In this document: positions 619 through 20,223 of the stretch, piece by piece
Position numbering within the stretch: the stretch's first letter is position 1
How the letters are laid out: each line of letters opens with the position of its first letter
Source of the DNA: Synechococcus elongatus PCC 6301
GTDB lineage: Bacteria; Cyanobacteriota; Cyanobacteriia; Synechococcales; Synechococcaceae
Assembly: GCF_000010065.1 (NCBI RefSeq)
Contig: NC_006576.1
Span: 1,770,001 to 1,802,000 of the forward strand
Direction of reading: 5' to 3'
Length of the DNA stretch: 32,000 nt
Notes under the pieces: model-generated
Database searches by the model: none
What the model was told of the DNA's origin: nothing
What the model saw: the letters and a program-made list of their open reading frames with translations, nothing else
Translations under genes and position numbers: made by a program

Positions 619-1317
619 ATGGATCGACAGCAACAGCTTCGTCGCCTTCAGGGAGGTCTGATTGTTTCCTGTCAGGCACCTGCGGATTCTCCCCTGCATC
701 AGCCAGAGATCATTGCCGCGATCGCAGTCGCAGCAGTTCAGCGTGGAGCTGTGGGCATTCGCTTGGATACGCCTGAACATGTGCGTGCCGTGCGCGATCG
801 CCTACCGGAAACACCAATTATTGGCCTCTGGAAACGTACCTTTCCCGATAGCTCGGTCTACATTACGCCCCGCTACGTCGAAGCAGAAGCGATCGCGGCG
901 GCCGGAGCCGACATTGTTGCCTTGGATTGCACCCTGCGCCCCCGCCCGGATGGCGAGGATTTTTGCCAAATCATTCCGCGCCTTCAGCAAGAACTCGGCT
1001 GTGCCGTGATGGCCGACATCGACACTCTAGAAGCAGCGATCGCGGCTGCCAAGGCAGGAGCTGATTTAGTCGGAACCACGCTCTACGGCTACACGGAAGC
1101 TACTCAGGGGCAAACCCCGCCGGGCTGGGATCTGTTAGAGACCGCCGCTCAACAATTGCCCAATACACCCGTGATCTGCGAAGGGGGAATTGCCAGTGCT
1201 CAAGCTGCCCGCCAAGCCTGCGATCGCGGCGCGTTTGCGGTTGTTGTCGGAACGGCGATTACAGGCATTGATCTGCAGGTCCAAGCCTACGTGACAGCTC
1301 TCAATGCAAGGCCCTAG
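619..1317 (+). CDS. nanE: Putative N-acetylmannosamine-6-phosphate 2-epimerase (NanE family, TIM barrel)
   Basis: Starts at the internal ATG at 619 (MDRQQQLRRLQGGLIVSCQA...). NanE-like signatures include GGLIVSCQA, GAVGIRL, IIGLWKR, DIVALDCT, ADLVGTTLYGYT, ICEGGI and VVVGTAIT. Confidence 0.78.
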   Translation: MDRQQQLRRLQGGLIVSCQAPADSPLHQPEIIAAIAVAAVQRGAVGIRLDTPEHVRAVRDRLPETPIIGLWKRTFPDSSVYITPRYVEAEAIAAAGADIVALDCTLRPRPDGEDFCQIIPRLQQELGCAVMADIDTLEAAIAAAKAGADLVGTTLYGYTEATQGQTPPGWDLLETAAQQLPNTPVICEGGIASAQAARQACDRGAFAVVVGTAITGIDLQVQAYVTALNARP

Positions 1318-1413
1318 ATTGTCACTCAGATTATCTTCAAGGGGGACCCCCCCGCGCTAGGATGCTTTAGCCCTTGGTTGTTGGGCAAGCTTTTTCGGTA
1401 AGAGGATCCGTCG

Positions 1414-3959
<2,546 letters not shown>

Positions 3960-3998
3960 ATACTCCTCTGAGTGAGCCCTCCTGCCTGCAAGCTGAAG

Positions 3999-4020
3999 TG
4001 AACAGTCTTGGCACTGTTCA
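3999..4020 (+). terminator. Stem-loop after the kinase gene (TGAACAG-8 nt-CTGTTCA)
   Basis: Perfect 7-bp stem 40 nt after the stop codon. There is no U-tract, so terminator function is uncertain. Confidence 0.3.
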
Positions 4021-4047
4021 GCCAAATTGAAGAGGCGATCGCGGCGC

Positions 4048-5481
4048 ATGAATCAGAAGCTGAGTCGGTACCCTAAATCCTCTTGGGCTTATGTGGTGAT
4101 CGCTTGTCCGATCGCGATCGCGCTAATTTTCAGCAGCCCTGTCAAAGCGAAGCTACCGCTGGGCGATCGCCTGACCTGGGGAAATGCCGTCACAGAAACT
4201 AGCCCTGCTTACCGACAGGCACTCAACCAAGCGAAGACCTTTCGGATGCCGGCTGAATTTGAACCGATCACCTCAATTTGGATGGCCTATCCAACCTACG
4301 AAAACCAGGCGGGTTATCCTTCTCAGACTGTTCAGAAGGCGATGGTAAAAGCGATCGCACCAACAGTCAAAATTGACTTTCTTCTGAATGAACCTGAAGA
4401 AAAAGTGATCATCAATGGTTGGCTCAAAACCGCAGGGATTCCAGCTAGTCAAGTCCGCTATCATTTGGTTCCCCATGAGGATCTCTGGATTCGAGATATG
4501 GGGCCAATCTTTGCGGTAAATGCTGATCAAACTCAAGTCGTTGATTTTGGTTTTAATGCTTGGAGTTATCTCGCAGCAACTGATCCAGCAGCAATGACAG
4601 ATGAACAGGTTGATCGCAAGGTCGCTGGTGATCTTGATCTTCCTATCTTGCGATCGAGCTTGATTAGTGAGGGTGGTAATCGGGAATTTAATGGTAAAGG
4701 CACATTGATGCTGACCGAAGCCGTTGAGCTACAGCGCAATCCAGGACTAACTAAGGAGAAGATTGAAACTGAACTCAAACGAGTCTTCAATCTCAAGAAA
4801 GTGATTTGGCTTCAGGAAGGTGTAATTGACGATGAACTGTCTTATCGTGGCAAGTTGCCAGATGGGAGCCTGACAGTGCTTGCAACGGGTGGTCATATTG
4901 ATGAGTATGCGCGGTTTGTTGATTCAAATACAATTTTATTGGCGGAAGTGACCGCAGAAGAAAGAGCTTCCGATCCGCTAGCAGCTATTAATTATCAACG
5001 GCTCGAGGAGAACTTAAAAATTCTGCAGGCTGCGACCGATCAGGATGGCAAGCCCTTCCGAATTGTTCGGATTCCTGCAGCTAAACCCATTTACGTGAAC
5101 ATGACTAAAGAGGATGCTGTCTTTCAAGCTCTGCAAGAACTCACCTTTGAAGATGGAACAGTCATTCAAGATGACGATCAGATCAAAACAATTTTGGCGG
5201 CTAGCTATCTCAACTTTGTGATCGCCAATGATGTTGTGATTGTCCCAAGATACTGGCAGCCCGATCGCAATTTGGAATATCAGCAAAAAGACCAAGCTGC
5301 CTTAGCTGCTTTTCAGTCGGTATTCCCCAACAAAAAGATCGTGGCGATCAATCCGGAAAATATCAATGCTGGGGGTGGGGGTATGCATTGCATCGTTCAG
5401 CAGCAAGCCGTGGTGGATGCAGTAGCTCGATCCCTCAGCACTGGGGCTGGCGATCGATCCAAGAGTAGAAGCAACCTATAA
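4048..5481 (+). CDS. Exported agmatine deiminase / Porphyromonas-type peptidyl-arginine deiminase family protein
   Basis: ATG at 4048 is preferred over TTG at 4027, with GAAGAGG upstream. The N-terminus has a signal-peptide-like segment (SSWAYVVIACPIAIALIFSSPVKA). Family motifs: MPAEFEP..IWMAYP, WIRDMGPIF, EGGNREFNGKGT, and the catalytic-Cys motif GGGGMHCIVQQQ. Confidence 0.8.
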   Translation: MNQKLSRYPKSSWAYVVIACPIAIALIFSSPVKAKLPLGDRLTWGNAVTETSPAYRQALNQAKTFRMPAEFEPITSIWMAYPTYENQAGYPSQTVQKAMVKAIAPTVKIDFLLNEPEEKVIINGWLKTAGIPASQVRYHLVPHEDLWIRDMGPIFAVNADQTQVVDFGFNAWSYLAATDPAAMTDEQVDRKVAGDLDLPILRSSLISEGGNREFNGKGTLMLTEAVELQRNPGLTKEKIETELKRVFNLKKVIWLQEGVIDDELSYRGKLPDGSLTVLATGGHIDEYARFVDSNTILLAEVTAEERASDPLAAINYQRLEENLKILQAATDQDGKPFRIVRIPAAKPIYVNMTKEDAVFQALQELTFEDGTVIQDDDQIKTILAASYLNFVIANDVVIVPRYWQPDRNLEYQQKDQAALAAFQSVFPNKKIVAINPENINAGGGGMHCIVQQQAVVDAVARSLSTGAGDRSKSRSNL

Positions 5482-5603
5482 GAACGCCCATCTAGCCCTC
5501 AGAAGCTTAAGCCGCAACAAGCTTTCGTCATAAACCTTACTCAATATGGGAAGATGACAGGCAGATATTGTGCTTTTTAGTCCCAGCGAAGCTGGATCTG
5601 TCA

Positions 5604-6878
5604 ATGAACCTAAACCTCAGCACTCCGAGTGACGTTATTGTGGCTGAGGCTCTCAAGCGCTTCTCTAAACGAGAACTAGCTAAGCACCTCGGGAAAGATC
5701 CCCGTATCATCACTGCTTTTCAGAGAGACGGAGTGGATGAGACTTACAAAATGGCTCTGCTTTACCTTCTGCAGAGCAACACTCCTCGTCCTAATCAAGG
5801 TAAAAAGCATGACTTTACTTTCATAGATCTGTTTGCTGGTATTGGCGGAACTCGGATGGGTTTCGAACGTGCCGGTGGAAAATGTGTATTCACGTCAGAG
5901 TGGGATACCTCTGCCCAAAAAACCTATCGAGCTAATTTCTCAGTTGATGAGCATCCCATCATCGGTGATATTCACGAGATTACAGTCGAAGGAAAATGGG
6001 ATCTCTTACCAGAGCATGACGTTCTTGTAGCTGGATTCCCTTGTCAGCCGTTTTCTATCGCCGGTGTCAGCAAGAAAAACTCGCTTGGAAGGGCTCATGG
6101 CTTTGCATGTGATGCTCAAGGCACACTCTTTTTTGATATCGCAACCATTATTGAAAGAAGACGACCCAAGGCCTTTTTGTTAGAAAATGTCAAAAACCTA
6201 ATGAGTCATGACAAGGGAAACACTTTTCGTGTTATCAAGAATGTTCTTGAGGATGAGCTTGGCTATAAGATTTACCCAAAAATAATTGATGCAAAAGGGT
6301 TTGTCCCTCAACATAGAGAACGTATCTATATTGTTGGCTTCCGAGAAGAGGTTGGCTTCAACTGGGATTCTTTCTCGCAGCCGCCTACTGATACAAAATG
6401 CATGGCCGACATCCTTCATCCTAATGATGGCAGCGAGGAAGTTGAGGAACCTTATACAGTTGGGATAGAGGCTAAAGTTAATGACAAATATACCCTAAGC
6501 GATAAGCTCTGGAATTACTTGCAAAACTATGCGAATAAACATCGAGCGGCTGGCAACGGCTTTGGTTTTGGTCTTGTCAACAAGGACAGTATTGCCCGGA
6601 CTCTTTCTGCTAGGTACTACAAGGATGGATCTGAGATCTTGGTTGATCAAGGCAAGGATAAGAATCCGCGACGCCTAACCCCTCGAGAATGCGCCCGTTT
6701 AATGGGCTTTGATAGTTCTGAGCATAAGTTCAACATCGTTGTTGCTGACACACCAGCCTACAAACAATTTGGAAACTCAGTTGTAGTACCGGTCATTACT
6801 GAAATTGCTCACACCATGAAGCCGAGCATAATACAACTAAAGGAGAGATATATTCGGCAAATTTCATTAGCCATCTAA
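5604..6878 (+). CDS. DNA (cytosine-5)-methyltransferase, Dcm/EcoRII-SsoII family, with N-terminal HTH-like extension
   Basis: All the m5C methyltransferase motifs are present: I FIDLFAGIGG, IV GFPCQPFS, VI ENVKNL, VIII QHRERIYIVGF, IX RRLTPRECARLMGF, X QFGNSVVVPV. The stretches GVSKKNSLGRAHGFACDAQGTLFFD and RTLSARYYKDGSEIL closely match E. coli Dcm as I recall it. ATG at 5604 is preferred over TTG at 5568. Confidence 0.95.
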   Translation: MNLNLSTPSDVIVAEALKRFSKRELAKHLGKDPRIITAFQRDGVDETYKMALLYLLQSNTPRPNQGKKHDFTFIDLFAGIGGTRMGFERAGGKCVFTSEWDTSAQKTYRANFSVDEHPIIGDIHEITVEGKWDLLPEHDVLVAGFPCQPFSIAGVSKKNSLGRAHGFACDAQGTLFFDIATIIERRRPKAFLLENVKNLMSHDKGNTFRVIKNVLEDELGYKIYPKIIDAKGFVPQHRERIYIVGFREEVGFNWDSFSQPPTDTKCMADILHPNDGSEEVEEPYTVGIEAKVNDKYTLSDKLWNYLQNYANKHRAAGNGFGFGLVNKDSIARTLSARYYKDGSEILVDQGKDKNPRRLTPRECARLMGFDSSEHKFNIVVADTPAYKQFGNSVVVPVITEIAHTMKPSIIQLKERYIRQISLAI

Positions 6879-7074
6879 AAGCTTGATTGTTTATGGCGTT
6901 TTGATATCTGTTGAGCCAAATACTACCATTCAGTTAGTGCGAAAGCATTTTACTGTATACAGACTTGAAAGCTATGTAAAGAAAGTGCCAAAATAAGCCC
7001 AGCAACAATCTAAACGAAATACAAATAACTTCATTGAATAATCATGACCAAAAAGCTTTTGGCAATTTAAACCT

Positions 7075-8163
7075 CTAATTCTCATGACGTTGTAGGTACC
7101 TAGGTAGATTTCCACTGCGAGAGAAGTTACACATGTCGTCAATGAATCTAGATAAAGGACGATAAAGCATATCTTGCCTCCGTGTTGTCTGTATTATGCT
7201 GTTAGCAGATAATGCTTCATAAGTTACATCTGGCATGTATATTGCCAGCGGACCAGCTGCTAGAAGTGTCTGTGTTCGATCTGGATTAAACTCATCGGGA
7301 TCCAAGAAAAAGCCGACTGCAACCTTATCTGGATGGGGAATGTCCTGAATACCTCTTAGCAGTCTTTCTCGAGCCGCATAACTTTTCACTTCGCAGTAAA
7401 GAATTTTTGTAGAATTTTGTGCTCGACATTCTACTTGGAGGTCACCTTCACTGTTATTTCCTGTCTTTTTGAAATTCTGACCCAGAACCATCCCAGCGTT
7501 TTCTAGACCGCGAATGAGTATTTTTTCGTTTATCCCTCCAGCTCTGGAGATAATGCCATTGTCAGACTCATGTACAAAGTCGACATAATTCTCGTAGAGG
7601 GAATTGATTAGTTGATTTTTGGAAACCCTAATCGTTTGCCCATCTTCTTCAAGATAACTCTGAAGAAGCCCCTCGATAAACTTATAGTGCTTCGGCTTCG
7701 TAATAGCATCTATAGTCCGCTTACAATGAGCATTGATTTCGAATAAGTTTTCTCCGGTCACCAAACCAATTTCTGTCTCTGCCAAAGCAACGACTGTCTC
7801 TGCTTTAGGATAAAAGCCAATTATCCTAGGAATATCATTAGGATATTGGTGAAGGTGTTCTCTTAGATAATTATCAACTGTTCCAGGCGTTACCTTGAAG
7901 AGGTTATAGATATCCTCGACATCTATTGCTCCAATATTTTCCGCTAAAAAGCTAGAAATTTCCTCAGAATAATTAACTGGATATACTCCAGTCACTTTGG
8001 CTTTTGCATTCGGATTCGCATCGAGATAGTTCTTTAGATGCTTCCTTACTGTTCCTTGGCTGACATTAAAAAGTTCATAGATATCCTTAGCATGAACAGG
8101 TTCATCATGTGTTCTTAGAAACGTGGCAATTTTTTGTGCATAGTCATAACGAGTTCTAGACAT
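7075..8163 (-). CDS. Putative restriction endonuclease: two tandem HTH-like modules plus a C-terminal PD-(D/E)xK nuclease core
   Basis: Convergent with the methyltransferase gene across a 196-bp AT-rich spacer. Candidate catalytic motif is E199/D241 ... E258-V-K260 (SEGDLQVECRAQNSTKILYCEVKS). Residues ~13-66 and ~68-122 are a clear internal duplication (DIYxLFxVxxGTVxxxLxxxLxxxPN...GxYP). The ORF itself is solid. The nuclease function is an inference. Confidence 0.6.
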   Translation of the reverse strand: MSRTRYDYAQKIATFLRTHDEPVHAKDIYELFNVSQGTVRKHLKNYLDANPNAKAKVTGVYPVNYSEEISSFLAENIGAIDVEDIYNLFKVTPGTVDNYLREHLHQYPNDIPRIIGFYPKAETVVALAETEIGLVTGENLFEINAHCKRTIDAITKPKHYKFIEGLLQSYLEEDGQTIRVSKNQLINSLYENYVDFVHESDNGIISRAGGINEKILIRGLENAGMVLGQNFKKTGNNSEGDLQVECRAQNSTKILYCEVKSYAARERLLRGIQDIPHPDKVAVGFFLDPDEFNPDRTQTLLAAGPLAIYMPDVTYEALSANSIIQTTRRQDMLYRPLSRFIDDMCNFSRSGNLPRYLQRHEN

Positions 8164-8302
8164 ATCTGAGCATTAAAACGTTTGGAAGAGTCTAGGCGCC
8201 AAAAACGGACTTGTCAATGGCTAAGCTAGAACTATTTGAATAGATATCGATTGTCCACTTCACACAACACGAAAGTGCTTGTGGCTTTATCCAATTTAAG
8301 AA

Positions 8303-8389
8303 CGGAGAGGGTGGGATTCGAACCCACGTCGGCTGTTACCCCGAACCTCATTTCGAGTGAGGCGCATTCGACCACTCTGCCACCTCTCC
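8303..8389 (-). tRNA. tRNA-Ser (anticodon CGA), 87 nt, CCA not encoded
   Basis: I folded the reverse complement by hand. It gives acceptor GGAGAGG/CCTCTCC, a 3-bp D stem GCA/TGC, an anticodon stem CCTCA/TGAGG with loop CTCGAAA, a long variable arm (class II), a T arm GTGGG-TTCGAAT-CCCAC, and discriminator G. Confidence 0.93.
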
Positions 8390-8426
8390 AGGTGCTTAGC
8401 CATCTTACAACCGAACCCCCTCAGAA

Positions 8427-10613
8427 TCAAAGCAGTCCGGGGCGAGCCTGTTGGGCGATCGCTGGTTGTAAGGATCCCCTAAGACTCCAACGCCAAGCTT
8501 GGTGGCGTGTGCGTCCATTGGGCTGCAGGGCTGGGGTGTCGCTTGTATGCATGCCGGTTGGAGCACTACTGCTGCTGATCCAGCCTTGAATCTGGCCGGA
8601 CTGTAACCAGCCCTGAGGGAGGCGATCGCTGGCTGACCAAAGCCAAGTTTGAGGCGGTAACGGCGGCAAATCCTGCGAACTCCAGCGATCGCTGCCGCGT
8701 TGAAATAGCCAGAGCCACTGCTCGCCCTGCCAGCTCAGTTGCCAGAGGTTGGGCGTGCGACTTAGCCACTCTAATTTCAGGTTGGGCCATTGGATCGTTT
8801 GCCCTGGTTGCAGGCTTTGGCTACTGAAAATCTGACGAATCGGCCATTGCTCCTGAACGGTACAGCGATCGCTCAGCTGCAAGACCCAGTCCAGTTGATT
8901 GATGCCCTGTTGTTCTAGGTAAGGCTGGAGATCCCAACGTAAGCTGCGATCGCTCGCTCCGCAGACTAAACCCACCTGACCGCGATCGCGCACGACAGCC
9001 AAGGGTCCATCACTGTTCAAAAACAGAATTTCCTGCTGGGTCGCTGCTTGCGCCAGTCCTGGCAGCAAGACGATCGCAATCAACGCCACGGCCAGCGATC
9101 GCCAGCGGCGGCGCAGTCGAGGCCAAGTCAGCAGCAGTGCATAACTGAGATAGCAGAGCAGCACAACAATCAGCGCAATCTGTCCAGTTGCCCAAGTTGC
9201 CCCAGGCAGATTGGCGATCGTACTGACTAGGCTAATCAGCAGCCAGAGTGGCGCGCTAAGCAGCCAAGCTGCGACACTCCCAAGTGGCAGCCAAATCAGC
9301 GAGAGCAGACCGGCCCATACGCCGCCCATCCCCAAACTTGCTAAGAGCGGTGTGACCAGCACATTCGCGGGAATCGCGTAGGGCGAGAGGGTGCCAAAGG
9401 CGTGCAGTTGTAGCGGTAGCGTCCAGAGTGTGGCGGCCAGTGGCACGGCAATCAGGATGGCCAGTCGAGGGGGTAGCCAGTCCAAGCGATCAGTAATAGG
9501 ACGAACACTGACGACCAGCCCCAAGGTCGCCAGAAAGCTGAACTGAAAGCCGAGATCCTCAATCCAGAGTGGTTGCCAGAGCAGCAGCGCGGTCGCGACC
9601 AGTAACAAGGTCGGTAAGGTCTGGGGCGATCGCTGACGCAACAGTGCCCAGAGCTGAATTTCGCCCATCAAGAACGCCCGCAACAGCGATGCAGAACTGC
9701 CTGCAATGCCGAGAAAACTGATCAGCGTGAGGGTACCGATCGCGGCTTGCCAACGGGGCGAGAGGCCCCGGCAACAGGCCAAGGTCAATCCCAGGAGCAA
9801 GGCTACCTGAAAGCCAGAAGCAGCCGTCGCATGAGCCAAACCACAACGCAGAAAATCCTCAGGAAGGTTGCCTGGTAGTCGTGCCAAGCCGTTGCCAAAG
9901 CTCAGGGCGGCCAGCGCTGAGCCTTGATCGGAACCTAAGCCTTGCTGAAAGGCAGCCAAAATACGGCGACGCACCGGCTCGAGGCTCCAGAGCGGCGGAT
10001 TGTCTTCCTTGAGCAGTTGCCCCCGAAATTCACTAAAAATCGACTGACGTTGGAGATAGCGTTGGCGATCGAAACCGGCAGGATTGCGCGGCGCTTGGAG
10101 CGATCGCAATTCCCCTTCCAACACCACGGTCTGACCGGGTTGTAATCCTGTGACAGCTTGGGTCAAGCGAACCGCAACCTGTCCTTGCAGCCCTTGGCTG
10201 GGGGGCAACCTCAGCTCAGTTTCGGCAGGATTGGGCGACCAGGTTTGCGCCGTCAGCGTGAAGGATTGGCCGTTGGTTTGTAGACGTGGGCGATCGCTGA
10301 TCGTTCCGACTAAAACACCTGACCCTTGATCAGCCCAGCGGCTAATGTCTGTGGCACTCGGTGTCGGTAAGCGTAGGTAAAACCAAAAGCCGGCGGCGTA
10401 AAGCGCGATCGCTGCCCAAAGCCAGAAGCGCAAGGGGATGCGGCGCTGACTTTTGCGGGGCAAGCAGGGATAGCCACCGATCGCGATCGCGGCCCAGAGG
10501 AGGCCAGCAAAGACCCAGCCGACGGGCAAAGGCGACTGGCTGGCGAGAAAGAAGCCCGCGATCGCAAAAGCACAGCAGAGATAGACTGCCGTGGGTGCCA
10601 TGGATCCATCCAC
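8427..10613 (-). CDS. comEC: DNA internalisation competence protein ComEC/Rec2
   Basis: Polytopic membrane protein with the competence-domain signature (FLRCGLAHATAASGFQVALLLG, compare GLxHLLAISGLH). The N-terminus has a DUF4131/OB-like region. The C-terminal ~200 aa resemble a metallo-beta-lactamase fold start (EILFLNSDG...) but lack HxHxDH. Confidence 0.88.
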   Translation of the reverse strand: MDGSMAPTAVYLCCAFAIAGFFLASQSPLPVGWVFAGLLWAAIAIGGYPCLPRKSQRRIPLRFWLWAAIALYAAGFWFYLRLPTPSATDISRWADQGSGVLVGTISDRPRLQTNGQSFTLTAQTWSPNPAETELRLPPSQGLQGQVAVRLTQAVTGLQPGQTVVLEGELRSLQAPRNPAGFDRQRYLQRQSIFSEFRGQLLKEDNPPLWSLEPVRRRILAAFQQGLGSDQGSALAALSFGNGLARLPGNLPEDFLRCGLAHATAASGFQVALLLGLTLACCRGLSPRWQAAIGTLTLISFLGIAGSSASLLRAFLMGEIQLWALLRQRSPQTLPTLLLVATALLLWQPLWIEDLGFQFSFLATLGLVVSVRPITDRLDWLPPRLAILIAVPLAATLWTLPLQLHAFGTLSPYAIPANVLVTPLLASLGMGGVWAGLLSLIWLPLGSVAAWLLSAPLWLLISLVSTIANLPGATWATGQIALIVVLLCYLSYALLLTWPRLRRRWRSLAVALIAIVLLPGLAQAATQQEILFLNSDGPLAVVRDRGQVGLVCGASDRSLRWDLQPYLEQQGINQLDWVLQLSDRCTVQEQWPIRQIFSSQSLQPGQTIQWPNLKLEWLSRTPNLWQLSWQGEQWLWLFQRGSDRWSSQDLPPLPPQTWLWSASDRLPQGWLQSGQIQGWISSSSAPTGMHTSDTPALQPNGRTRHQAWRWSLRGSLQPAIAQQARPGLL

Positions 10614-10666
10614 AAACGCTGTTGTTTAGGAAGCCCACGCCAGTGCAAAGAGTTGCGATCGCGAAT

Positions 10667-11545
10667 CTAGGCTGTCACTTTTTGCAGCAGTGGAAAGCCC
10701 AACTGCTCGCGCTGTTCCAGATAGAGCTTGGCAACTTGCCGCGCCATATTCCGAATCCGGCCGATGTAGCGCGTTCGCTCCGTCACCGAAATCAGACCGC
10801 GAGCATCTAGCAGGTTGAAGCTGTGGGAACACTTGAGCACGTAATCCAAGCTGGGATGCACCAGCCCCTTCTCAATTAGTTGGGTGGCTTCCTGCTCGTA
10901 AAGACCAAATAACTGGAAGAGCAACTCCGGCGTCGAAGCTTCGAAGTTGTAGGTGCATTGCTCAATCTCGCTTTGCAGATGCACGTCGCCATAGCTGAGG
11001 CGATCGGTCCACTTGATCTCGGTGAAGGCTTCGACGTTTTGCAAATACATCGCCAGCCGTTCCAGACCGTAGGTGATCTCAATCGACACAGGTCGACAGT
11101 CGATGCCGCCGCACTGCTGGAAGTAGGTGAACTGAGCCACCTCCATGCCATCCAGCCAAACTTCCCAGCCGACACCCCAGGCCCCAAGCGTTGGCGACTC
11201 CCAGTTATCTTCGACAAAGCGGATGTCATGTTCCTCGGGCTGAATCCCCAAGGCCCTCAGTGAGTCAAGATAGGTTTCCTGAATCCCTTCTGGTGAGGGC
11301 TTGATCAGCACTTGGTACTGGTAGTAGTGCTGATAGCGATTGGGATTTTCGCCGTAGCGACCATCAGTAGGACGACGACAAGGCTCCACATAAGCCACAG
11401 CCCAAGGCTCAGGCCCGATCGCCCGCAGAAAAGTGTGCGGATTCATGGTGCCGGCCCCTTTTTCGGTGTCGTAGGGCTGGGCAATCAGGCAACCGCGATC
11501 GGCCCAAAATTGGTTGAGCGTGGCAATGACGGATTGAAAGTTCAC
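10667..11545 (-). CDS. glyQ: Glycine--tRNA ligase alpha subunit
   Basis: [41 protein letters not shown]... is a near-universal GlyQ N-terminus. The 292-aa length is typical. Confidence 0.97.
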
Positions 11546-11659
11546 GCCGTCCTCGATTCGATGGGTGAAGTGCTACAGCTTTTCACCGTAGCAGGATTGC
11601 AGGGGCTTCCCTAGCGATCGCGAGTTGAGGCGATCATCGGTGTGCCAAAAGACCGAGAT

Positions 11660-12610
11660 CTAGCGCACGGAGCCCCAGCCGTCCCAAGGGCTGACCTCGA
11701 CTACGCCACTGGGCTGAAAGACGATGCGGAGATCCGCTAGGGGTTGGCGATCGCCTGCAGGCAATGGCTTCAAGAGTGAAGCGAGCGGTGTTTGCTGAAT
11801 GTCAGATTGGCTATCTTCGGCGCGATAACCCACAATTTGACCTGTGGCCGTTGCGCTGACGCGATATTGCTCAGCTTCCGCAGGTTCGTACTCGGGTTTG
11901 CGATCCCAAGCACTGCCGATCGCTGCTCGACTGGCCACCACAACAGCTTCCAGCGTTCCTGCATCCGCCAAACTTGGGCTACTGGCAGGAGGCTCTGTCG
12001 CAGGTGGATTGCTGTTCGCCCCTGAGGTCGTCTGCTCAGTCTGGGGTAGGTTCTCGCGCGGCGGCTTCACCTCAGGAATTGGCAGGGCAAAGAGAGCTGC
12101 AGCAGCGATCGCGAGTCCAGCTAGACCGACAGCGGGTGCGGCGGCCCGTTGTGGCAACGGCACCAGAGCTGGGACATGGCGACGCGGTAGGGGGGCCAAG
12201 CCAATCTGGAGATCGGGCAGCGTTAAGGGGTCTGCGATGAGTTGATCGATCGCATCGACCAGATCAAAGAGCTGCAGGCTGTTTAGTTCCAGTGCAACTT
12301 CGCTACCGTTATCGTTACTGGTCAGCTGATGGCGATCGCGATCGAGCGATCGCAACTGGATCAAGTCGCTACTGATGGCAGTCTGGGGGCGAGGCAAACC
12401 ACTGATCACCCCTTGGGCGTAGGCACTCGCGACTGTGGCAAGCTGAACCAGAAAATCTTTACCACCCCGTAGAGCCGGTTGTAGGCCGGGGAAGCCACAC
12501 TCCACCCGCGTCACAATTGTCAGGCATTGACTGTTATCCAAGCTGGCATCGGCAAGGCCTTGCACGAGCAAACTGCAATTGGGCAGCTGATAGAGCCGTT
12601 GAAGTTGCAT
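11660..12610 (-). CDS. Cyanobacterial conserved membrane-anchored protein (DUF4335-like)
   Basis: The N-terminus (LYQLPNCSLLVQGL) matches what I recall of the DUF4335 family. There is a central hydrophobic helix (VGLAGLAIAAAALFALPI), then a Pro/Thr/Ser-rich linker and a small C-terminal domain. Confidence 0.7.
   Translation of the reverse strand: MQLQRLYQLPNCSLLVQGLADASLDNSQCLTIVTRVECGFPGLQPALRGGKDFLVQLATVASAYAQGVISGLPRPQTAISSDLIQLRSLDRDRHQLTSNDNGSEVALELNSLQLFDLVDAIDQLIADPLTLPDLQIGLAPLPRRHVPALVPLPQRAAAPAVGLAGLAIAAAALFALPIPEVKPPRENLPQTEQTTSGANSNPPATEPPASSPSLADAGTLEAVVVASRAAIGSAWDRKPEYEPAEAEQYRVSATATGQIVGYRAEDSQSDIQQTPLASLLKPLPAGDRQPLADLRIVFQPSGVVEVSPWDGWGSVR
12332..12353. repeat. Example HIP1 cluster (GCGATCGC-GATCGA-GCGATCGC)
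   Basis: Two full HIP1 octamers sit within 22 nt. HIP1 occurs about 60 times in the window by my manual count. It is a hallmark of many cyanobacterial genomes. Confidence 0.9.
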
Positions 12611-12616
12611 CGCTGA

Positions 12617-13336
12617 CTAAACCTCACCATCAAACAGACTGGCCCAGAGGCGCTTGGCTCCAGCCACACCAGTACAGAACAGCAGTTGTTCCACGAGGGT
12701 CAACGCCAACTGGTCGAGGCTATCGCCTTCGGCCAAGCGAATGACCGCCGCCCGGCGCGGGTTCATGCGGGACTGGAAGTGCGATCGAAAGCGATCGAGA
12801 TAAAAGGCAATTAAGGCATCGCTGCGGTAGTCTGCCCCCTGCTGTTCCAGTTGGCTTCGAGTCAGCAGAATCTGCCGGATCGGCACGGTCAGTCGCTGGG
12901 CGAGGTTACTGATCAACACTGCGATCGCCTGGATTTCAGCCTGACTGAGGGGTTGGCGCTGGGTGAGGCGACGCAGGGGATTGGTGCTCCGTAGTCGCCA
13001 GACTTGGACGCGATCGCGCAAGACCGATTCAAGCCCCAACTCACGGCTGACCCAGAGAATGGCTTCTGGGGCTCCTAAGTCCAATGCTTCGAGAGCTAAA
13101 AGCAAAAGGTCGAGATGCTGTCGGGCGCGCCGTGGACAGTCTTCGGGAATCCCCGCTAGCTTGGGCAACTGCAGCAAGGCCGCCGGCAAGCTTGCTTCGG
13201 CTGGCATGGGAGTTGGAGAAATACTGGCAGAGGCGTTCATGCAATCCATCGAGCCCTGAGCGCCCGCACCGCGATCGCCCTTCGCTGCCGATGGTACCAG
13301 CGCCAGAAACGGGTTTGCGGGCAGACAGTGTTTCAA
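12617..13336 (-). CDS. Cyanobacterial conserved hypothetical protein (DUF3038-like)
   Basis: The stop lies 6 nt upstream of the next gene's ATG, so the two are tightly coupled. LDLLLLALEALDLG...ILWVSRELGL resembles DUF3038 as I recall it. The start is uncertain because several in-frame Met codons occur (MKHC.. or MDCMNAS..). Confidence 0.65.
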   Translation of the reverse strand: MKHCLPANPFLALVPSAAKGDRGAGAQGSMDCMNASASISPTPMPAEASLPAALLQLPKLAGIPEDCPRRARQHLDLLLLALEALDLGAPEAILWVSRELGLESVLRDRVQVWRLRSTNPLRRLTQRQPLSQAEIQAIAVLISNLAQRLTVPIRQILLTRSQLEQQGADYRSDALIAFYLDRFRSHFQSRMNPRRAAVIRLAEGDSLDQLALTLVEQLLFCTGVAGAKRLWASLFDGEV

Positions 13337-13410
13337 TTTAGCATTTCTGGGCTTGCCATCCCGCGAGTGGCAGATGCCACAATGCTGGGGAATGTTGGCG
13401 TCCCCTCTGC

Positions 13411-13926
13411 ATGGATCTCAAAACCCTGATTCGGGAAATTCCGGATTTTCCCAAACCCGGCATCCTGTTCCGAGACTACACAACGGTGTTGAAGGACCCC
13501 CAGGGTTGGCGCTACAGCATCGATCGTTTGACTGAGTTGATCAAGCCCTTGGAACCGACGGCGATCGTGGGGATTGAGTCGCGGGGTTTCATCCTAGGTG
13601 CGCCCTTGGCCTACCAACTCGGCTTGGGTTTTGTGCCGGTGCGGAAGCCGGGCAAACTGCCTGCTGACACCCACAGCGTCGAGTATGAGCTGGAATACGG
13701 TAGCGATCGCCTCGAAATCCACCAAGATGCTTTGGCTCCGGGCGATCGGGTTGTCGTTGTCGATGACTTAATTGCCACGGGCGGGACTGCCAGTGCTACC
13801 GCCACGTTGATCGATCGCTGCAGCGCGACCTTGGCCGGCTTTGCCTTTGTGATCGAGCTGGAAGGGCTGAATGGCCGCGATCGCCTGCCCGAGGTACCAA
13901 TCATCAGCCTCGTGAGCTACGACTAA
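13411..13926 (+). CDS. apt: Adenine phosphoribosyltransferase
   Basis: [13 protein letters not shown] and the PRPP-binding motif [14 protein letters not shown] are present. The 171-aa length is typical. Confidence 0.95.
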
Positions 13927-13932
13927 GTCGAC

Positions 13933-14928
13933 ATGAGTCGCCGTGCCACCACCCAGTTTTTGCTGCAACGGTTGCTCCAAGCCCTGTTGACGTTGCTGCT
14001 AGCTTCGTTCCTCAGCTTTTGTCTGATCCAGCTGGCACCCGGCGACTATCTCAGTAACCTGCAGCAAAACCCCCAACTGTCTGCTGAACGGATTCAAGAA
14101 CTACGGCAACAATTTGGCCTCGATCGTCCTTGGCTTGAGCAGTATGGACGCTGGCTCTGGCAAGTGGTTCGCTACGGCAACTTTGGCAGCAGTTTTGTCT
14201 ATCAACGACCTGTCGCCGATCTGCTCTGGGAGCGCGTGCCCAACACCTTGCTCTTGGCTATCTGTTCTCTGATCACGACTTGGGCGATCGCCTTGCCGCT
14301 GGGCATTCAGGCCGCCGTTGCTCAAAATCAGCGGAGCGATCGCATCCTGCAACTGATCAGCTATCTTGGGCAGGGAACTCCGAGTTTTATTACAGCGCTG
14401 CTGCTGCTCTTCCTCGCGCAGTTTCTGACGCCGCTGCTGCCGATCGGCGGCATGACTAGCCTCGATTTTGAAGACCTCACGCCCCTGCAACAAATGGCGG
14501 ATTTGGGTCGCCATCTCATCCTGCCGGTCTTAGCGCTTACTCTCTCGGGCTTTGCTAGCCTGCAGCGGATCAGCCGTGGTGAAATGCTCGAGGTGCTGCG
14601 CCAAGACTACATCCGCACCGCCCGTGCCAAAGGCTTGCCGGAGCAGCGCGTCATCTACGTCCACGCTCTACGCAATGCGATCAATCCCCTGATTACGCTC
14701 TTGGGCTTTGAGTTCGCGACCCTGCTCAGCGGCGCTTTTATTGCTGAATATTTCTTTAACTGGCCGGGGCTAGGCCGCTTAATTTTGCAAGCCGTTTTTG
14801 CGCAGGATCTCTACTTGGTAATGGCCAGCTTGATGATGGGTGCTGTGATGCTGATTCTGGGCAATCTGCTCGCAGATCTGCTGCTGCGCTGGGTCGATCC
14901 CCGCATTCGCCTGGATGATCTGAACTAA
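13933..14928 (+). CDS. ABC transporter permease, DppB/OppB (peptide/nickel) type
   Basis: The N-terminus (LLQRLLQALLTLLLASFLSFCLIQLAPGD) and the EAA-loop region (DYIRTARAKGLPEQRVIYVHALRNA) are typical of DppB/OppB permeases. Confidence 0.88.
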   Translation: MSRRATTQFLLQRLLQALLTLLLASFLSFCLIQLAPGDYLSNLQQNPQLSAERIQELRQQFGLDRPWLEQYGRWLWQVVRYGNFGSSFVYQRPVADLLWERVPNTLLLAICSLITTWAIALPLGIQAAVAQNQRSDRILQLISYLGQGTPSFITALLLLFLAQFLTPLLPIGGMTSLDFEDLTPLQQMADLGRHLILPVLALTLSGFASLQRISRGEMLEVLRQDYIRTARAKGLPEQRVIYVHALRNAINPLITLLGFEFATLLSGAFIAEYFFNWPGLGRLILQAVFAQDLYLVMASLMMGAVMLILGNLLADLLLRWVDPRIRLDDLN

Positions 14929-14966
14929 ATTGTTCACGCTTCTGGCTTGAGTCCTGTAGTGCGCTC

Positions 14967-15007
14967 AGGCAGTCTTGGGCTGCGATCGTGCAGACGCCTA
15001 GTTTTTT
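14967..15007 (+). terminator. Rho-independent terminator after the permease gene
   Basis: Imperfect hairpin AGGC(A)GTCT...AGACGCCT spans 14967-14999, followed by T6 at 15002-15007. Confidence 0.55.
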
Positions 15008-15036
15008 GGCAAACCATTGGCTAACATTCAGGTGCT

Positions 15037-16149
15037 TTGACTCTCTGTGCAAATAAAAAGGCGCTTCTCGTGGTCGGCATTTTTTCTAAGTTTCTTGGTG
15101 GCGATCAATCGCGCCTTGGGGTGGAAATTACCCCAGAGCGGATCAATCTTGCCCACATTGGCCGCAAGGGGAATCGCCTGCAGCTTCAGGATTTTGTTTC
15201 CGTGGAGCTACCGGATGGGTTGTTTCAAGACGGGCGCGTGCTAGATAGCTTCAGCCTGTCCGATCTGCTCCGCACCGCCATCAACGACAACCGCATCAGA
15301 ACCAAAAGAGTCTCCACTGCGGTGCCAGGACGAGAGGTGATCACCCGGCTGCTGCCCATGCCCGCGGAGCTCGATGATGCCGAATTGCGCGAGACACTGA
15401 TCAATCAAGAAGCTGCTCTGTTCCTGCCCTTCCCGCGTGAAGAGGCCGACATCGACTATCTGAAACTGGACTATTTTCTGGACGCGGATGAGGTCGAAAA
15501 GTTGCACGTCCTGCTCGTGGCGACTCGTCGGCAGGTGACCGATGTCTACCTTGATCTCTTTGCCCAAGCTGGCCTGACGCCTGACATTGTGGAAGTTGGG
15601 AGCTTTGCGCTAATCCGAACGATTCGCGAAGCGCTGCGCCAGTACGGATTGCAAGAAGCGGTCATTCTCCTCAACGTGGAATATGACCTCACAGAAATCG
15701 TGATTATCGTTGGGGGCGTGCCTCGGTTTAGCCGCACGATCGCCATGGGTACTCAGCAGTGGCAGCGGGCTGCAGCCCAAGCTGGTATCGACAATACAGG
15801 ACGGGGTATTGATTTCCTGCAGGGGCGATCGTTCACATTGCTCGAACCCCCGGCTGATCTCCTCTCTCAAGCTCTGGCACGATCGGTCACCGAGCTCTGT
15901 GATGAAGTACGGCGATCGGCTGACTTCTACCTCAGCCAAGAGACCGATATTGAAGTAGCCAAGCTCTACGTTGCAGGTCCAGGCTCAGCCTTGCCAACAC
16001 TACCCGAGTTTCTGGGGCAACGCCTAGGGCTCCCTGTAGAACTCGTCGATCCTGTCGAGGGGTTGGGGCTCGAGGTGGCGGAGAACCTTTATTTGCCAAA
16101 TCGCGCTGATGTGGGCGTGGTGTTGGGCTTAGCCACGCGAGGAGTATAG
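15037..16149 (+). CDS. pilM: Type IV pilus assembly ATPase-like protein PilM
   Basis: Actin-like PilM fold signature (GVEITPERINLAHIG..., ..LYVAGPGSALP). First gene of pilMNOQ. The start is ambiguous: TTG at 15037 or GTG at 15070. Confidence 0.88.
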   Translation: MTLCANKKALLVVGIFSKFLGGDQSRLGVEITPERINLAHIGRKGNRLQLQDFVSVELPDGLFQDGRVLDSFSLSDLLRTAINDNRIRTKRVSTAVPGREVITRLLPMPAELDDAELRETLINQEAALFLPFPREEADIDYLKLDYFLDADEVEKLHVLLVATRRQVTDVYLDLFAQAGLTPDIVEVGSFALIRTIREALRQYGLQEAVILLNVEYDLTEIVIIVGGVPRFSRTIAMGTQQWQRAAAQAGIDNTGRGIDFLQGRSFTLLEPPADLLSQALARSVTELCDEVRRSADFYLSQETDIEVAKLYVAGPGSALPTLPEFLGQRLGLPVELVDPVEGLGLEVAENLYLPNRADVGVVLGLATRGV

Positions 16150-16151
16150 CG

Positions 16152-16868
16152 GTGTACAGCTTAGACATTAACTTTCTCAAAGAACGGACAACCACAGCGC
16201 CGCCAGTTACCACCTTCGGGACTGCAGCCGTTGCCACTAATCCCTCGGAGCGGCTCCCGCTCTGGATTGGGGTGGGTATCGGCTTGCTTTTGCCTGGGCT
16301 GGCACTCGTGGTTACGGCCTTGGCTAACAATCGGGTTTCGACCCTGACTGCTGACAAGGCCGAACTCGAACAACAAATTCAGCTGGGGCAGCCAGCAGAA
16401 GCCCGCCTCAAGAGCATTCAGGCTGAGATTGAGCAAATCAATACCGACACCACGTCCTTAATTCAGGTCTTCCCGCAGGTCAAATCCTAGTCTGCTATCC
16501 TCACCGACCTGAGTCGACGGACCCCGGTGGCAGTTCAGATCAGCAAGATTGAGCAGGCGGGCAAGAAGGTCACCCTACAGGGCAGTTCTTCTAACTACGA
16601 CTCGGTCAATGACCTGCTGCTGACCTTGCAGCAGTCGCGTTTCTTTACAGCTAGCAGCCTGCGGATTGAAGAGGCGAAATTAGGCGCTACCCCTACTCAA
16701 AATACAGGGGAGAACAGTCCTAAGCTGTCGAATGTGAACTATCGCATTGTCGGTGAGCTCAGCGACGTTCCCACGACGGATCTCTTGCAAAATCTCCGTC
16801 AGCTCGATGCTCAAGGTCTTGCTGCTCGCCTGCAGGGATTAGTGAACCAAGGGGTACTGAAGCCATGA
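16152..16868 (+). pseudogene. pilN: pilN interrupted by an in-frame TAG (16488-16490); appears as two ORFs, 16152-16490 and 16527-16868
   Basis: Both ORFs are in the same frame (16152 and 16527 are both divisible by 3). The N-terminal part has the PilN signature (LDINFLKER plus a TM helix and coiled coil). The C-terminal part continues a PilN periplasmic domain. Reading through gives ...VFPQVKS*SAILTDLSRRTPVAVQISKIEQ, where orthologues have a Trp as I recall. Confidence 0.8.
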
Positions 16869-17659: not shown

Positions 17660-17736
17660 CGAGGCAAGTGGTAGGAATCGCCCTTGAAGCGATCGCGAGT
17701 GAGTGAATTTACGGTGTGGGTGTGAGGTTTCGAACA

Positions 17737-20188: not shown

Positions 20189-20223
20189 GATGCAGAAGAA
20201 GAGCCTATCAGGACTCTTGAAAT

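What the first reader, a model, noticed from the sequence alone, without database searches (positions are those of the whole stretch)
5482..8302. HIP1-free, low-GC islet at the 3' end of tRNA-Ser carrying a convergent m5C-methyltransferase / nuclease pair
HIP1 (GCGATCGC) occurs about once per 450 bp across the window, roughly 60 copies by eye. I find none between 4359 and 8454. On that density about 9 would be expected. Hand-counted GC on sample lines drops from 55-62% in the flanks to about 42% in the methyltransferase gene, about 37% in the nuclease gene, and lower in the 196-bp spacer. The right edge abuts the 3' end of tRNA-Ser(CGA), a classical genomic-island insertion point. The cargo is a complete Dcm-family methyltransferase and a PD-(D/E)xK protein in tail-to-tail orientation, which is typical of type II R-M and other defence modules. 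No integrase, transposase or tRNA-derived direct repeat is visible, so the element looks immobilised or acquired by recombination. The host encodes natural-competence machinery, and comEC and pilMNOQ lie in this same window. A foreign restriction barrier is therefore functionally relevant here.
Basis: partly seen in the sequence, partly recalled or inferred. Interest (0 to 1): 0.78.

Follow-up and report, generated by a model that had tools for sequence, protein, structure and literature searches.

The report
Foreign CCWGG-type restriction-modification cassette beside tRNA-Ser
A 2.9-kb piece of foreign DNA next to a tRNA gene in Synechococcus elongatus carries an ordinary two-gene restriction-modification defence system, whose nuclease belongs to an unstudied protein family shaped like the known CCWGG/CCNGG-cutting enzymes PspGI and Ecl18kI.

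Summary
The window has 64 HIP1 sites and none between 4359 and 8454. GC falls from about 56% to 43% across that gap.

The gap has two parts:
- **4359-5422:** the body of an agmatine-deiminase-family (PAD) gene. It is equally low in GC and syntenic in two related S. elongatus lineages, so it was acquired earlier.
- **5423-8293 (2871 bp):** a true insertion. Both relatives lack it and carry only 68 or 142 bp between PAD and tRNA-Ser(CGA).

The insert holds two convergent genes:
- **Methyltransferase:** Dcm-like m5C enzyme (370 bits to Shigella Dcm).
- **Nuclease:** 362 aa, annotated as hypothetical, with no Pfam, PADLOC or PDB sequence match.

The nuclease model is confident (pLDDT 92-93). It matches only PspGI (/CCWGG) and Ecl18kI (/CCNGG) in the PDB. 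It keeps the CCGG-family signature D…ExK-x4-R-E-R-x6-D. Homologues are rare and proteobacterial. In 17 of 19 contexts they sit beside a Dcm-like methyltransferase, often with Vsr and sometimes with an EcoRII-type or MvaI/BcnI-type nuclease.

A published table of Tn-seq essentiality calls lists the methyltransferase as essential, which fits a live cognate nuclease.

Verdict: a real, probably active type IIP R-M system with predicted target CCWGG. The kind is ordinary, and the methyltransferase was already flagged as foreign in 2011. Interest is modest.

The parts
4048..5481 (+). Agmatine-deiminase-family (PAD_porph) gene, Synpcc7942_2461. It is not part of the insert, but its last 20 codons (5423-5481) were rewritten at the left junction. 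The body from about 4300 onward is low in GC and lacks HIP1.
   Evidence: Pfam PF04371 at E 1e-77. It is 91% and 86% identical to PAD of related S. elongatus lineages, and the next-best hits are 61% or lower and non-cyanobacterial where named. Relatives end ...VVD(E/S)AI(A/T)K*, whereas the window ends ...VVDAVARSLSTGAGDRSKSRSNL*. PAD GC is 46-47% in L009 and L010 as well.
5423..8293 (.). Inserted block of 2871 bp, absent from related lineages.
   Evidence: blastn shows window 619-5422 and 8294-18211 collinear with L009 6499-11324 and 11393-21318. L010 breaks at 5418 and 8293 (alignments). GC is 33-44% with no HIP1. Positions 5436-5480 may still be remnant native spacer, so the left edge is uncertain by about 60 bp.
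5604..6878 (+). Dcm-like C5-cytosine DNA methyltransferase (Synpcc7942_2460) with an N-terminal ~70-aa HTH-like extension. The ORF opens at TTG 5568; ATG 5604 matches the homologues' N-termini.
   Evidence: PF00145 at E 8e-87, NCBIfam TIGR00675 at 316 bits, and PRK10458 at 447 bits, below its 710-bit cutoff. It scores 370 bits to Shigella Dcm 3lx6, including the target-recognition region. It is 54-59% identical to the MTases next to nuclease homologues. It is tabulated as essential.
6879..7074 (.). AT-rich convergent spacer (33% GC). The closest homologous cassette has vsr at this position.
   Evidence: for GC. No Vsr remnant by tblastn. No unusual RNA structure, z = -0.28. No terminator-like site in the spacer.
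7075..8163 (-). Predicted restriction endonuclease (Synpcc7942_2459, UniProt name 'SynR', 362 aa). It consists of two N-terminal winged-HTH modules followed by a PspGI/Ecl18kI-like catalytic core.
   Evidence: Identical to ABB58489.1 / Q31KD0. AF2 model pLDDT 92.4. Foldseek PDB search returns only PspGI.
7810..8163 (-). Tandem pair of winged-HTH modules (residues 1-60 and 61-118). Homologues have only one.
   Evidence: Pfam HTH_DeoR at E 7e-7 with two stretches. The two modules are 34% identical over 53 aa, E 2e-12. Homologues cover only about 81% of the query.
7075..7809 (-). Nuclease core (residues 119-362). Codon positions: invariant E213 at 7525-7527; D241 at 7441-7443; E258-x-K260 at 7384-7392; R265-E266-R267 at 7363-7371; near-invariant D274 at 7342-7344.
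   Evidence: Invariant columns in 35- and 54-sequence alignments. Coordinates checked by translation. The core-only model (pLDDT 93.5) matches PspGI at E 4.8e-6 and Ecl18kI at E 4-7e-5, both with probability 1.00 and TM 0.5-0.58; every other hit has E of 0.08 or worse.
8189..8217 (-). Promoter-like site upstream of the nuclease gene (TTGACA, 17 nt, TAGACT).
   Evidence: Best consensus match in the region, 10 of 12. This is a consensus match only.
8302..8390 (-). tRNA-Ser(CGA), native. Its 3' end faces the insert.
   Evidence: ARAGORN and Rfam RF00005 at 62.8 bits. L009 and L010 carry a tRNA-Ser(CGA) gene at the same position; the L009 copy is identical in sequence.
8427..10613 (-). comEC, the native right flank.
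   Evidence: Pfam Competence plus DUF4131. Syntenic in L009.

Best explanation
Window 5423-8293 is a horizontally acquired, self-contained type IIP restriction-modification cassette. It was inserted into the short spacer between the PAD gene and tRNA-Ser(CGA) in the PCC 7942/6301 lineage.

**Proposed mechanism**
- The Dcm-like enzyme methylates the inner cytosine of its target. The target is most likely CCWGG.
- The convergently transcribed 362-aa protein is the cognate endonuclease. It would act as a dimeric PD-(D/E)xK enzyme of the CCGG family, reading the CC:GG halves with an R-E-R motif at the start of a helix.
- By analogy with PspGI and Ecl18kI it would flip out the central base pair and cut before the first C.
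- Unmethylated incoming double-stranded DNA is cut. Loss of the methyltransferase is lethal because the nuclease then attacks the chromosome.

**Shown here:** the insertion and its polarity, the methyltransferase family, the nuclease fold and conserved motif, and the gene linkage across genomes. The Tn-seq essentiality of the methyltransferase comes from the literature.

**Inferred:** the exact target sequence, the cleavage position, base flipping, dimer state, in-vivo activity, and the role of the N-terminal winged-HTH modules. My guess for those modules is autoregulation or effector-site binding.
For: **Insertion**
- The flanks are collinear with L009 and L010 at 81-82% identity, and the block is missing in both.
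- Three relatives share the short PAD C-terminus, so the window state is derived.
- Composition is atypical.

**Methyltransferase**
- PF00145 and TIGR00675 hits.
- 370 bits to Dcm with the target-recognition region conserved.
- The closest plasmid MTases (55-64% identity) sit next to EcoRII-C nucleases, with or without Vsr.

**Nuclease**
- High-confidence models.
- The only significant PDB matches are PspGI and Ecl18kI.
- Invariant residues are E213, D241, E258-x-K260 and R265-E266-R267, with D274 near-invariant. PspGI has active-site residues E105, D138, K160 and E173, and recognition residues R164-E165-R166 (PMC2577326). The spacing from R-E-R to the acidic residue is 7 in both.
- The CCGG-family hallmark is PD...K...D/E plus R-(D/E)-R (PMC6344858).

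**Linkage**
- A Dcm-like MTase is adjacent in 17 of 19 distinct homologue contexts, usually convergent. Vsr is present in 11, EcoRII-C in 3 and MvaI/BcnI in 1.

**Activity**
- Synpcc7942_2460 is listed as 'essential' under the Rubin et al. 2015 calls in S8 Table of PMC5464585, although related lineages lack the gene altogether.
Against: - No biochemical or methylome data for this locus were found.
- There is no sequence-level similarity to any characterised nuclease: profile against PDB, hhalign against EcoRII-C at probability 1.6%, and no Pfam or PADLOC hit.
- The K-to-R-E-R spacing is 5 residues here and 4 in PspGI. Residue equivalence was not checked by superposition.
- The MTase scores below the NCBIfam Dcm subfamily cutoff (447 against 710), so CCWGG is not proven. 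CCNGG or another CC-GG target remains possible.
- In four homologue contexts a second CCWGG-type nuclease is also present. That leaves room for a role other than sole restriction enzyme.
- The essentiality status of the nuclease gene itself could not be retrieved.
- One homologue (L017) has no recognisable MTase within 5 kb.
Confidence: 0.8

Rival explanations
1. It is the same R-M cassette, but the target is not CCWGG. It could be CCNGG as for SsoII/Ecl18kI, CCSGG, or a longer CCGG-containing site.
For: The nuclease core matches Ecl18kI (CCNGG) almost as well as PspGI. The MTase falls below the Dcm subfamily cutoff. One homologue sits beside an MvaI/BcnI-family enzyme, a family that includes the CCSGG cutter BcnI. 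Members of the CCGG family cover 4-8 bp targets (PMC6344858).
Against: The MTase target-recognition region is highly similar to Dcm. Its closest plasmid relatives pair with EcoRII-C nucleases. EcoRII-C genes share a locus with nuclease homologues in three contexts.
Confidence: 0.2
2. The methyltransferase is effectively an orphan. The 362-aa protein is not a working restriction enzyme: it could be a DNA-binding regulator with a degenerate nuclease-like domain, or an inactive relic.
For: The gene is annotated as hypothetical. No Pfam or PADLOC nuclease model hits it. It carries two HTH modules typical of transcription factors. Standard S. elongatus protocols do not report a restriction barrier; this last point rests on my own knowledge.
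Against: All family-invariant catalytic and recognition residues are intact. The ORF is full length. The MTase is essential in Tn-seq despite being absent from sister lineages, which is hard to explain without a toxic partner. Common E. coli cloning hosts are dcm+ (own knowledge), which would hide a CCWGG barrier.
Confidence: 0.1
3. The block is ancestral to S. elongatus and was deleted in the L009 and L010 lineages, rather than inserted in the PCC 7942 lineage.
For: Only two or three comparison lineages were available, and their branching order was not established. PAD shows that low GC can persist for a long time. CCWGG is depleted in the lineage that lacks the system as well.
Against: Relatives share a short PAD C-terminus and an intact HIP1-bearing spacer, whereas the window has a rewritten C-terminus. 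The nuclease family was found in no other cyanobacterium among 185,579 species genomes. GC3 of 33-42% is more extreme than in PAD.
Confidence: 0.08
4. It is a classical tRNA-targeting integrative island that has lost its integrase.
For: It lies next to the 3' end of tRNA-Ser(CGA). Homologous cassettes elsewhere lie near recombinases or phage-like genes.
Against: There is no integrase or fragment of one and no tRNA-derived direct repeat. The junction lies outside the tRNA, and the tRNA is identical to that of L009, which lacks the insert. The block holds only the two R-M genes.
Confidence: 0.05

Closest known systems
PspGI (/CCWGG) and Ecl18kI/SsoII (/CCNGG), nucleotide-flipping type IIP enzymes of the CCGG family
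   Same: They are the only significant structural matches. The active-site pattern D...K...acid and the R-E-R recognition triplet at the start of the following helix are shared. Like them, the window nuclease is paired with a cytosine methyltransferase.
   Different: There is no detectable sequence similarity. The window family keeps a canonical E-x-K glutamate in addition to the downstream acid. It has one extra residue between K and R-E-R. It carries an N-terminal winged-HTH module, duplicated in S. elongatus, that PspGI and Ecl18kI lack. From my own knowledge, PspGI's cognate MTase is an N4-cytosine enzyme rather than m5C.
EcoRII / Dcm / Vsr (CCWGG) system of enterobacteria
   Same: The MTase is strongly similar to Dcm, including the target-recognition region. 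Homologous cassettes carry vsr, and some carry an EcoRII-C gene. EcoRII also joins a PspGI-like core to an N-terminal DNA-binding domain (PMC2770665 abstract).
   Different: The nuclease is not an EcoRII-C family member (no Pfam hit; hhalign probability 1.6%). Its N-terminal domain is a winged HTH, and no Pfam EcoRII-N match was found. The S. elongatus cassette has no vsr.
PfoI, the 'most diverged' CCGG-family enzyme
   Same: It is a precedent for a family member recognisable only by structure, with shifted catalytic and recognition residues (PMC6344858).
   Different: PfoI did not appear among the significant structural hits. It has a different motif permutation and a 7-bp target.
SsoII-type methyltransferases with an N-terminal regulatory HTH
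   Same: The MTase clade has a ~70-aa N-terminal extension. In one orthologue (L008) it scores as HTH_3/HTH_31, and it aligns with the window N-terminus.
   Different: The window N-terminus itself gives no Pfam HTH hit. The genes are convergent rather than divergent, so there is no shared promoter region. A regulatory role was not tested.

Membership tests
Type II (IIP) restriction-modification system | Separate, adjacent methyltransferase and endonuclease genes | tested here: met
   Convergent ORFs at 5604-6878 (+) and 7075-8163 (-). The same pairing is seen in 17 of 19 homologue contexts.
Type II (IIP) restriction-modification system | Methyltransferase with a complete catalytic motif set | tested here: met
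   PF00145 matched over profile positions 1-323 of 324. FxGxG, PCQ, ENV, QxRxR and GNSV motifs are visible in the alignments.
Type II (IIP) restriction-modification system | Endonuclease with an intact catalytic site | tested here: met
   D241, E258 and K260 are invariant across 54 family members and present in the window protein. The fold is PD-(D/E)xK.
Type II (IIP) restriction-modification system | Both enzymes act on the same sequence, and cleavage is blocked by the methylation | not testable with these tools
   This needs methylome and cleavage assays.
Type II (IIP) restriction-modification system | Methyltransferase indispensable while the nuclease is present | tested here: inconclusive
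   The MTase is listed as essential (Rubin 2015 calls in PMC5464585 S8 Table). The nuclease's own status and the double mutant are unknown.
Dcm / M.EcoRII (CCWGG) methyltransferase subfamily | Scores above the curated Dcm subfamily threshold (NCBIfam PRK10458) | tested here: not met
   446.6 bits against a cutoff of 710.
Dcm / M.EcoRII (CCWGG) methyltransferase subfamily | Target-recognition region like Dcm, and association with CCWGG nucleases or Vsr | tested here: met
   The TRD aligns closely with Dcm 3lx6. The closest plasmid relatives pair with EcoRII-C with or without Vsr. Orthologous cassettes carry Vsr or EcoRII-C.
CCGG family of restriction endonucleases (PspGI, Ecl18kI, EcoRII-C, NgoMIV ...) | Shared PD-(D/E)xK core fold with family members | tested here: met
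   Foldseek: PspGI at E 4.8e-6 and Ecl18kI at E 4-7e-5, probability 1.00, TM 0.5-0.58. No other significant hits.
CCGG family of restriction endonucleases (PspGI, Ecl18kI, EcoRII-C, NgoMIV ...) | Active-site pattern PD...K...(D/E) and an R-(D/E)-R recognition triplet after the catalytic Lys | tested here: inconclusive
   D241, K260 and R265-E266-R267 are invariant, D274 is conserved in 90% or more, and the R-E-R-to-acid spacing of 7 equals that of PspGI. K-to-R-E-R is 5 rather than 4, and no 3D superposition of residues could be made.
CCGG family of restriction endonucleases (PspGI, Ecl18kI, EcoRII-C, NgoMIV ...) | Detectable sequence homology to a family member | tested here: not met
   No PDB hit with the family profile. 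hhalign against EcoRII-C gives probability 1.6%. No Pfam EcoRII-C hit. PfoI shows that this is not required for membership.
CCGG family of restriction endonucleases (PspGI, Ecl18kI, EcoRII-C, NgoMIV ...) | Cuts before the first C of a CCGG/CCNGG core; flips the central base pair in 5-bp sites | not testable with these tools
   Needs biochemistry or a co-crystal structure.
tRNA-targeting integrative genomic island | Integrase or recombinase gene in the element | tested here: not met
   The block holds only the MTase and nuclease ORFs, and no such Pfam domain was found.
tRNA-targeting integrative genomic island | Direct repeat of the tRNA 3' end at the distal border | tested here: not met
   No repeat of 8302-8350 anywhere in 3600-8700.
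tRNA-targeting integrative genomic island | Integration within the tRNA gene's 3' part | tested here: not met
   Homology with relatives resumes at 8293-8294, which is 8-9 bp outside the tRNA. The tRNA sequence is identical to that of insert-free L009.

The most novel reading that the evidence does not exclude
The nuclease family would be a previously unrecognised architecture within the CCGG family: a PspGI-like catalytic core fused to an N-terminal winged-HTH DNA-binding module, present in two copies in S. elongatus. The module would act either as an allosteric effector-site binder, making the enzyme an EcoRII-like type IIE with an unrelated effector domain, or as a built-in controller that times nuclease expression after transfer. 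This could explain why the family recurs in the same loci as EcoRII-type or MvaI/BcnI-type enzymes that share one Dcm-like methyltransferase.
Probability: 0.25. Interest if true: 0.55.

Novelty: new member of a known kind. Interest (0 to 1): 0.35.

Why it matters
**For S. elongatus PCC 7942/UTEX 2973 as a model and chassis.** The result gives a concrete reason why a strain-specific methyltransferase is scored essential. It also predicts a CCWGG restriction barrier. From my own knowledge, common cloning hosts are dcm+, so routine use of their DNA would mask that barrier. PCR products, synthetic DNA and DNA from dcm-minus hosts would be the substrates at risk.

**For restriction-enzyme biology.** It adds a rare family, found in 17 of 185,579 species genomes, that current Pfam and PADLOC models miss. 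Automated defence-system surveys would therefore call the methyltransferase an orphan.

**As a method note.** The neighbouring PAD gene shows that lack of HIP1 and low GC can persist across about 18% sequence divergence. These signals mark foreign origin, but they do not show that the acquisition was recent.

Tried and rejected
- **comEC synteny scan.** A genome-contig scan with ComEC returned no relatives. Synteny was recovered through PAD homologues instead. S. elongatus itself never appeared in genome contigs, even for the nuclease pattern it contains, so its own genome seems to be absent or masked there.
- **Sequence-level links of the nuclease to known enzymes.** All were negative: phmmer and profile against PDB, hhalign against EcoRII-C, Pfam, NCBIfam and PADLOC, and tblastn against plasmids.
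- **tRNA-derived or flanking repeats.** None beyond chance-level short matches.
- **Vsr remnant in the 196-bp spacer.** None.
- **Structure or terminator in the spacer.** Nothing. Rfam finds only the tRNA.
- **Donor identification.** The closest nuclease homologue (66-68% identity, L031) has an MTase only 58% identical and about 66% DNA identity, so no donor could be named.
- **Literature.** The Rubin 2015 paper is not held. The Tn-seq supplements of PMC10653904 were truncated before genes 2459 and 2460. No methylome, EcoRII/BstNI or dcm data for PCC 7942 turned up. The meaning of the UniProt name 'SynR' could not be traced.
- **CCWGG avoidance as evidence for this system.** Rejected, because the depletion is as strong or stronger in L009, which lacks the cassette.


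Full report
**1. The observation**

HIP1 (GCGATCGC) occurs 64 times in the 32-kb window, against about 1 expected by chance. No copy lies between 4351-4358 and 8455-8462. This is the largest gap, 4.1 kb against 2.6 kb for the next. About 8-9 sites are expected in it, giving Poisson P of about 1e-4 for the interval and 0.005-0.018 after correction for 64 gaps.

GC is 42.8% over 4359-8301 and 55.7% elsewhere. By segment: methyltransferase gene 44.2%, nuclease gene 39.9%, 196-bp spacer 33.2%, comEC 59.2%. tRNA-Ser(CGA) lies at 8302-8390 on the minus strand with its 3' end toward the islet.

**2. The anomalous stretch has two parts**

The compositional drop begins near 4300, inside an ORF of the Porphyromonas-type peptidyl-arginine/agmatine deiminase family (PAD; Pfam E 1e-77). 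This protein is 91% identical to proteins of S. elongatus PCC 11802 and of another S. elongatus genome, and 86% identical to a third lineage. The next-best hits drop to 61% or lower and, where named, are Desulfovibrio, Acidobacteria, Planctomycetota or Polyangium.

The genome carrying the 91% homologue (L009, CP168031.1) has this gene order: metK, FGGY kinase, PAD, tRNA-Ser(CGA), comEC, glyQ ... pilM, pilN, a 270-aa gene with no Pfam hit (the position of pilO), secretin. There is no methyltransferase or nuclease. blastn results:

| Window segment | L009 segment | Identity |
|---|---|---|
| 619-5422 | 6499-11324 | 82.5% |
| 8294-18211 | 11393-21318 | 80.6% |

Window 5423-8293 (2871 bp) is therefore replaced by 68 bp in L009. 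The third lineage (L010) breaks at the same points and carries 142 bp there.

PAD is about 46-47% GC and HIP1-poor in all three lineages. It is thus an older, shared, foreign-looking gene. The R-M pair is a separate event.

PAD of PCC 11802, L009 and L010 all end ...VVD(E/S)AI(A/T)K. The window protein ends ...VVDAVARSLSTGAGDRSKSRSNL. The window state is therefore derived, which favours insertion in the PCC 7942/6301 lineage over loss elsewhere.

Native sequence resumes at 8293-8294, 8-9 bp beyond the tRNA 3' end. No integrase and no tRNA-derived repeat are present.

**3. The methyltransferase**

ORF 5604-6878 (the ORF opens at TTG 5568) is a complete C5-cytosine methyltransferase: PF00145 at E 8e-87 and TIGR00675 at 316 bits. 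It scores 447 bits on the Dcm subfamily model, below that model's 710-bit cutoff.

Its best solved relative is Shigella Dcm at 370 bits, and the alignment runs through the target-recognition region. The closest plasmid-borne relatives are 55-64% identical. They sit next to EcoRII-C family nucleases with or without Vsr, or next to an HNH enzyme with a weak EcoRII-N match.

The roughly 70-residue N-terminal extension aligns with that of orthologues. In one of them it scores as a Cro/C1-type HTH.

**4. The nuclease**

ORF 7075-8163 (minus strand, 362 aa) is identical to ABB58489.1 / Q31KD0. It is annotated as a hypothetical protein and named 'SynR' in UniProt. Only N-terminal HTH Pfam models hit it. 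NCBIfam gives nothing, PADLOC gives no nuclease model, and no PDB sequence match is significant.

It defines a small family of about 300-aa proteins, with 54 clusters among 5.8 billion. Invariant residues are E213, D241, E258, K260 and R265-E266-R267, with D274 near-invariant.

The S. elongatus protein has an extra copy of the N-terminal winged-HTH module. The two copies are 34% identical, E 2e-12.

AlphaFold models are confident: pLDDT 92.4 for the full length and 93.5 for the core. Foldseek against the PDB returns only PspGI for the full model. For the core it returns PspGI (E 4.8e-6) and Ecl18kI (E 4-7e-5), all at probability 1.00 and TM 0.5-0.58. Everything else has E of 0.08 or worse.

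The PspGI structure paper gives active-site residues E105, D138, K160 and E173 and recognition residues Q94 and R164-E165-R166 (PMC2577326). The CCGG family is defined by PD...K...D/E plus an R-(D/E)-R triplet at the start of a helix (PMC6344858). The window family has the same order of elements:

| Feature | Window family | PspGI |
|---|---|---|
| R-E-R to downstream acidic residue | 7 | 7 |
| Catalytic K to R-E-R | 5 | 4 |

Profile comparisons with PDB sequences and with EcoRII-C find nothing. PfoI is a published precedent for a family member recognisable only by structure.

**5. Linkage across genomes**

The nuclease family was found in 17 of 185,579 species-representative genomes. All are Alpha-, Beta- or Gammaproteobacteria, mostly aquatic, and none is another cyanobacterium. 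Counts over 19 distinct contexts, including metagenome contigs:

| Neighbour | Contexts |
|---|---|
| Dcm-like methyltransferase, 53-64% identical to the window enzyme, usually convergent | 17 |
| vsr | 11 |
| EcoRII-C gene in the same locus | 3 |
| MvaI/BcnI-family gene | 1 |

The closest homologue (L031) has the nuclease convergent with a vsr-methyltransferase pair. The S. elongatus cassette has only a 196-bp AT-rich spacer where vsr would be, with no remnant.

**6. Evidence of activity**

S8 Table of PMC5464585 lists Synpcc7942_2460 as 'essential' in its column of Rubin et al. 2015 essentiality calls. The gene is absent from sister lineages and compositionally foreign. Essentiality is then most simply explained by protection against a live cognate nuclease.

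No methylome or restriction data for this locus were found. [quoted passage not shown]

**7. Interpretation**

The block is a compact type IIP restriction-modification cassette with a probable CCWGG target. I put that specificity at roughly 0.65 and other CC-GG targets at about 0.2. It was inserted by an unknown route, with no mobility genes, into the PAD/tRNA-Ser spacer of the PCC 7942 lineage.

The nuclease is a structurally recognisable but sequence-orphan member of the CCGG family, with an added winged-HTH module of unknown role. Rival readings are scored separately in the rival-explanations section of this report: a different target, an inactive nuclease, an ancestral block lost elsewhere, and a decayed tRNA island.

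**8. Novelty and interest**

Delaye et al. 2011 already listed Synpcc7942_2460 as a xenolog belonging to an R-M system, using HIP1 scarcity, GC and phylogeny (PMC3025956). The following points were not found in the papers searched:
- the exact borders and polarity of the insert;
- the separation of the insert from the older PAD acquisition;
- the assignment of the 'hypothetical' partner to the PspGI/Ecl18kI structural class, with its conserved motif;
- the predicted specificity;
- the link to the essentiality call.

This is a new member of a known kind. It is useful to cyanobacterial geneticists and restriction-enzyme specialists, but it is not surprising. Interest: 0.35.

Noticed in passing
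window 4048-5481 (PAD gene); L009 10001-11338; L010 184-1572: The agmatine-deiminase-family gene has a HIP1-rich, ~54% GC leader (four HIP1 sites in its first 330 bp) and a HIP1-free, ~46% GC catalytic body. The same pattern is seen in two related lineages. Outside the S. elongatus clade its nearest relatives are non-cyanobacterial. It looks like an older horizontal acquisition that has not ameliorated over about 18% sequence divergence.
   Followed up: partly
window outside 4027-8301; L009 whole locus: CCWGG is the third most under-represented of 512 pentamer pairs in the native flanks (36 observed, 70.8 expected). It is even more depleted in L009, which lacks the R-M cassette (19 against 50.3). 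GGWCC is also low (18 against 34.9). The depletion therefore cannot be credited to this cassette, and its cause is unexplained.
   Followed up: partly
L004 4704-8635; L006 4641-8693; L024 1949-5867; L030 4890-8880: In four proteobacterial loci the nuclease homologue shares one C5-methyltransferase (Dcm-like in three, only 28% identical in L030) with a second CCWGG-type nuclease: EcoRII-C in three and MvaI/BcnI family in one. Why two nucleases accompany one methyltransferase is not explained.
   Followed up: partly
L017 4842-5801 and neighbours: A gammaproteobacterial MAG (38% GC) has a nuclease homologue with no recognisable C5-methyltransferase within 5 kb. The convergent 381-aa neighbour has no Pfam hit.
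   Followed up: partly
L031 1165-4076: In the closest homologous cassette the nuclease gene is 42% GC, while the adjacent vsr and methyltransferase genes are 57-60% GC. Its MTase is only 58% identical to the window MTase, although the nucleases are 66-68% identical. This suggests that the nuclease and methyltransferase modules have been shuffled.
   Followed up: no
window 19000-19999 and 24000-25999; HIP1 gaps 14336-16976 and 24714-26456: There are further patches of reduced GC (0.48-0.51) and long HIP1-free intervals elsewhere in the window. One lies in the 3' part of the pilQ-like ORF. They were not examined.
   Followed up: no
Genome-contig collection: Neither the ComEC query nor the nuclease pattern KSYAARERL, which the window protein contains, retrieved S. 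elongatus PCC 7942 itself. Its genome appears to be absent or masked in that collection, so absence of hits there says nothing about S. elongatus strains.
   Followed up: no
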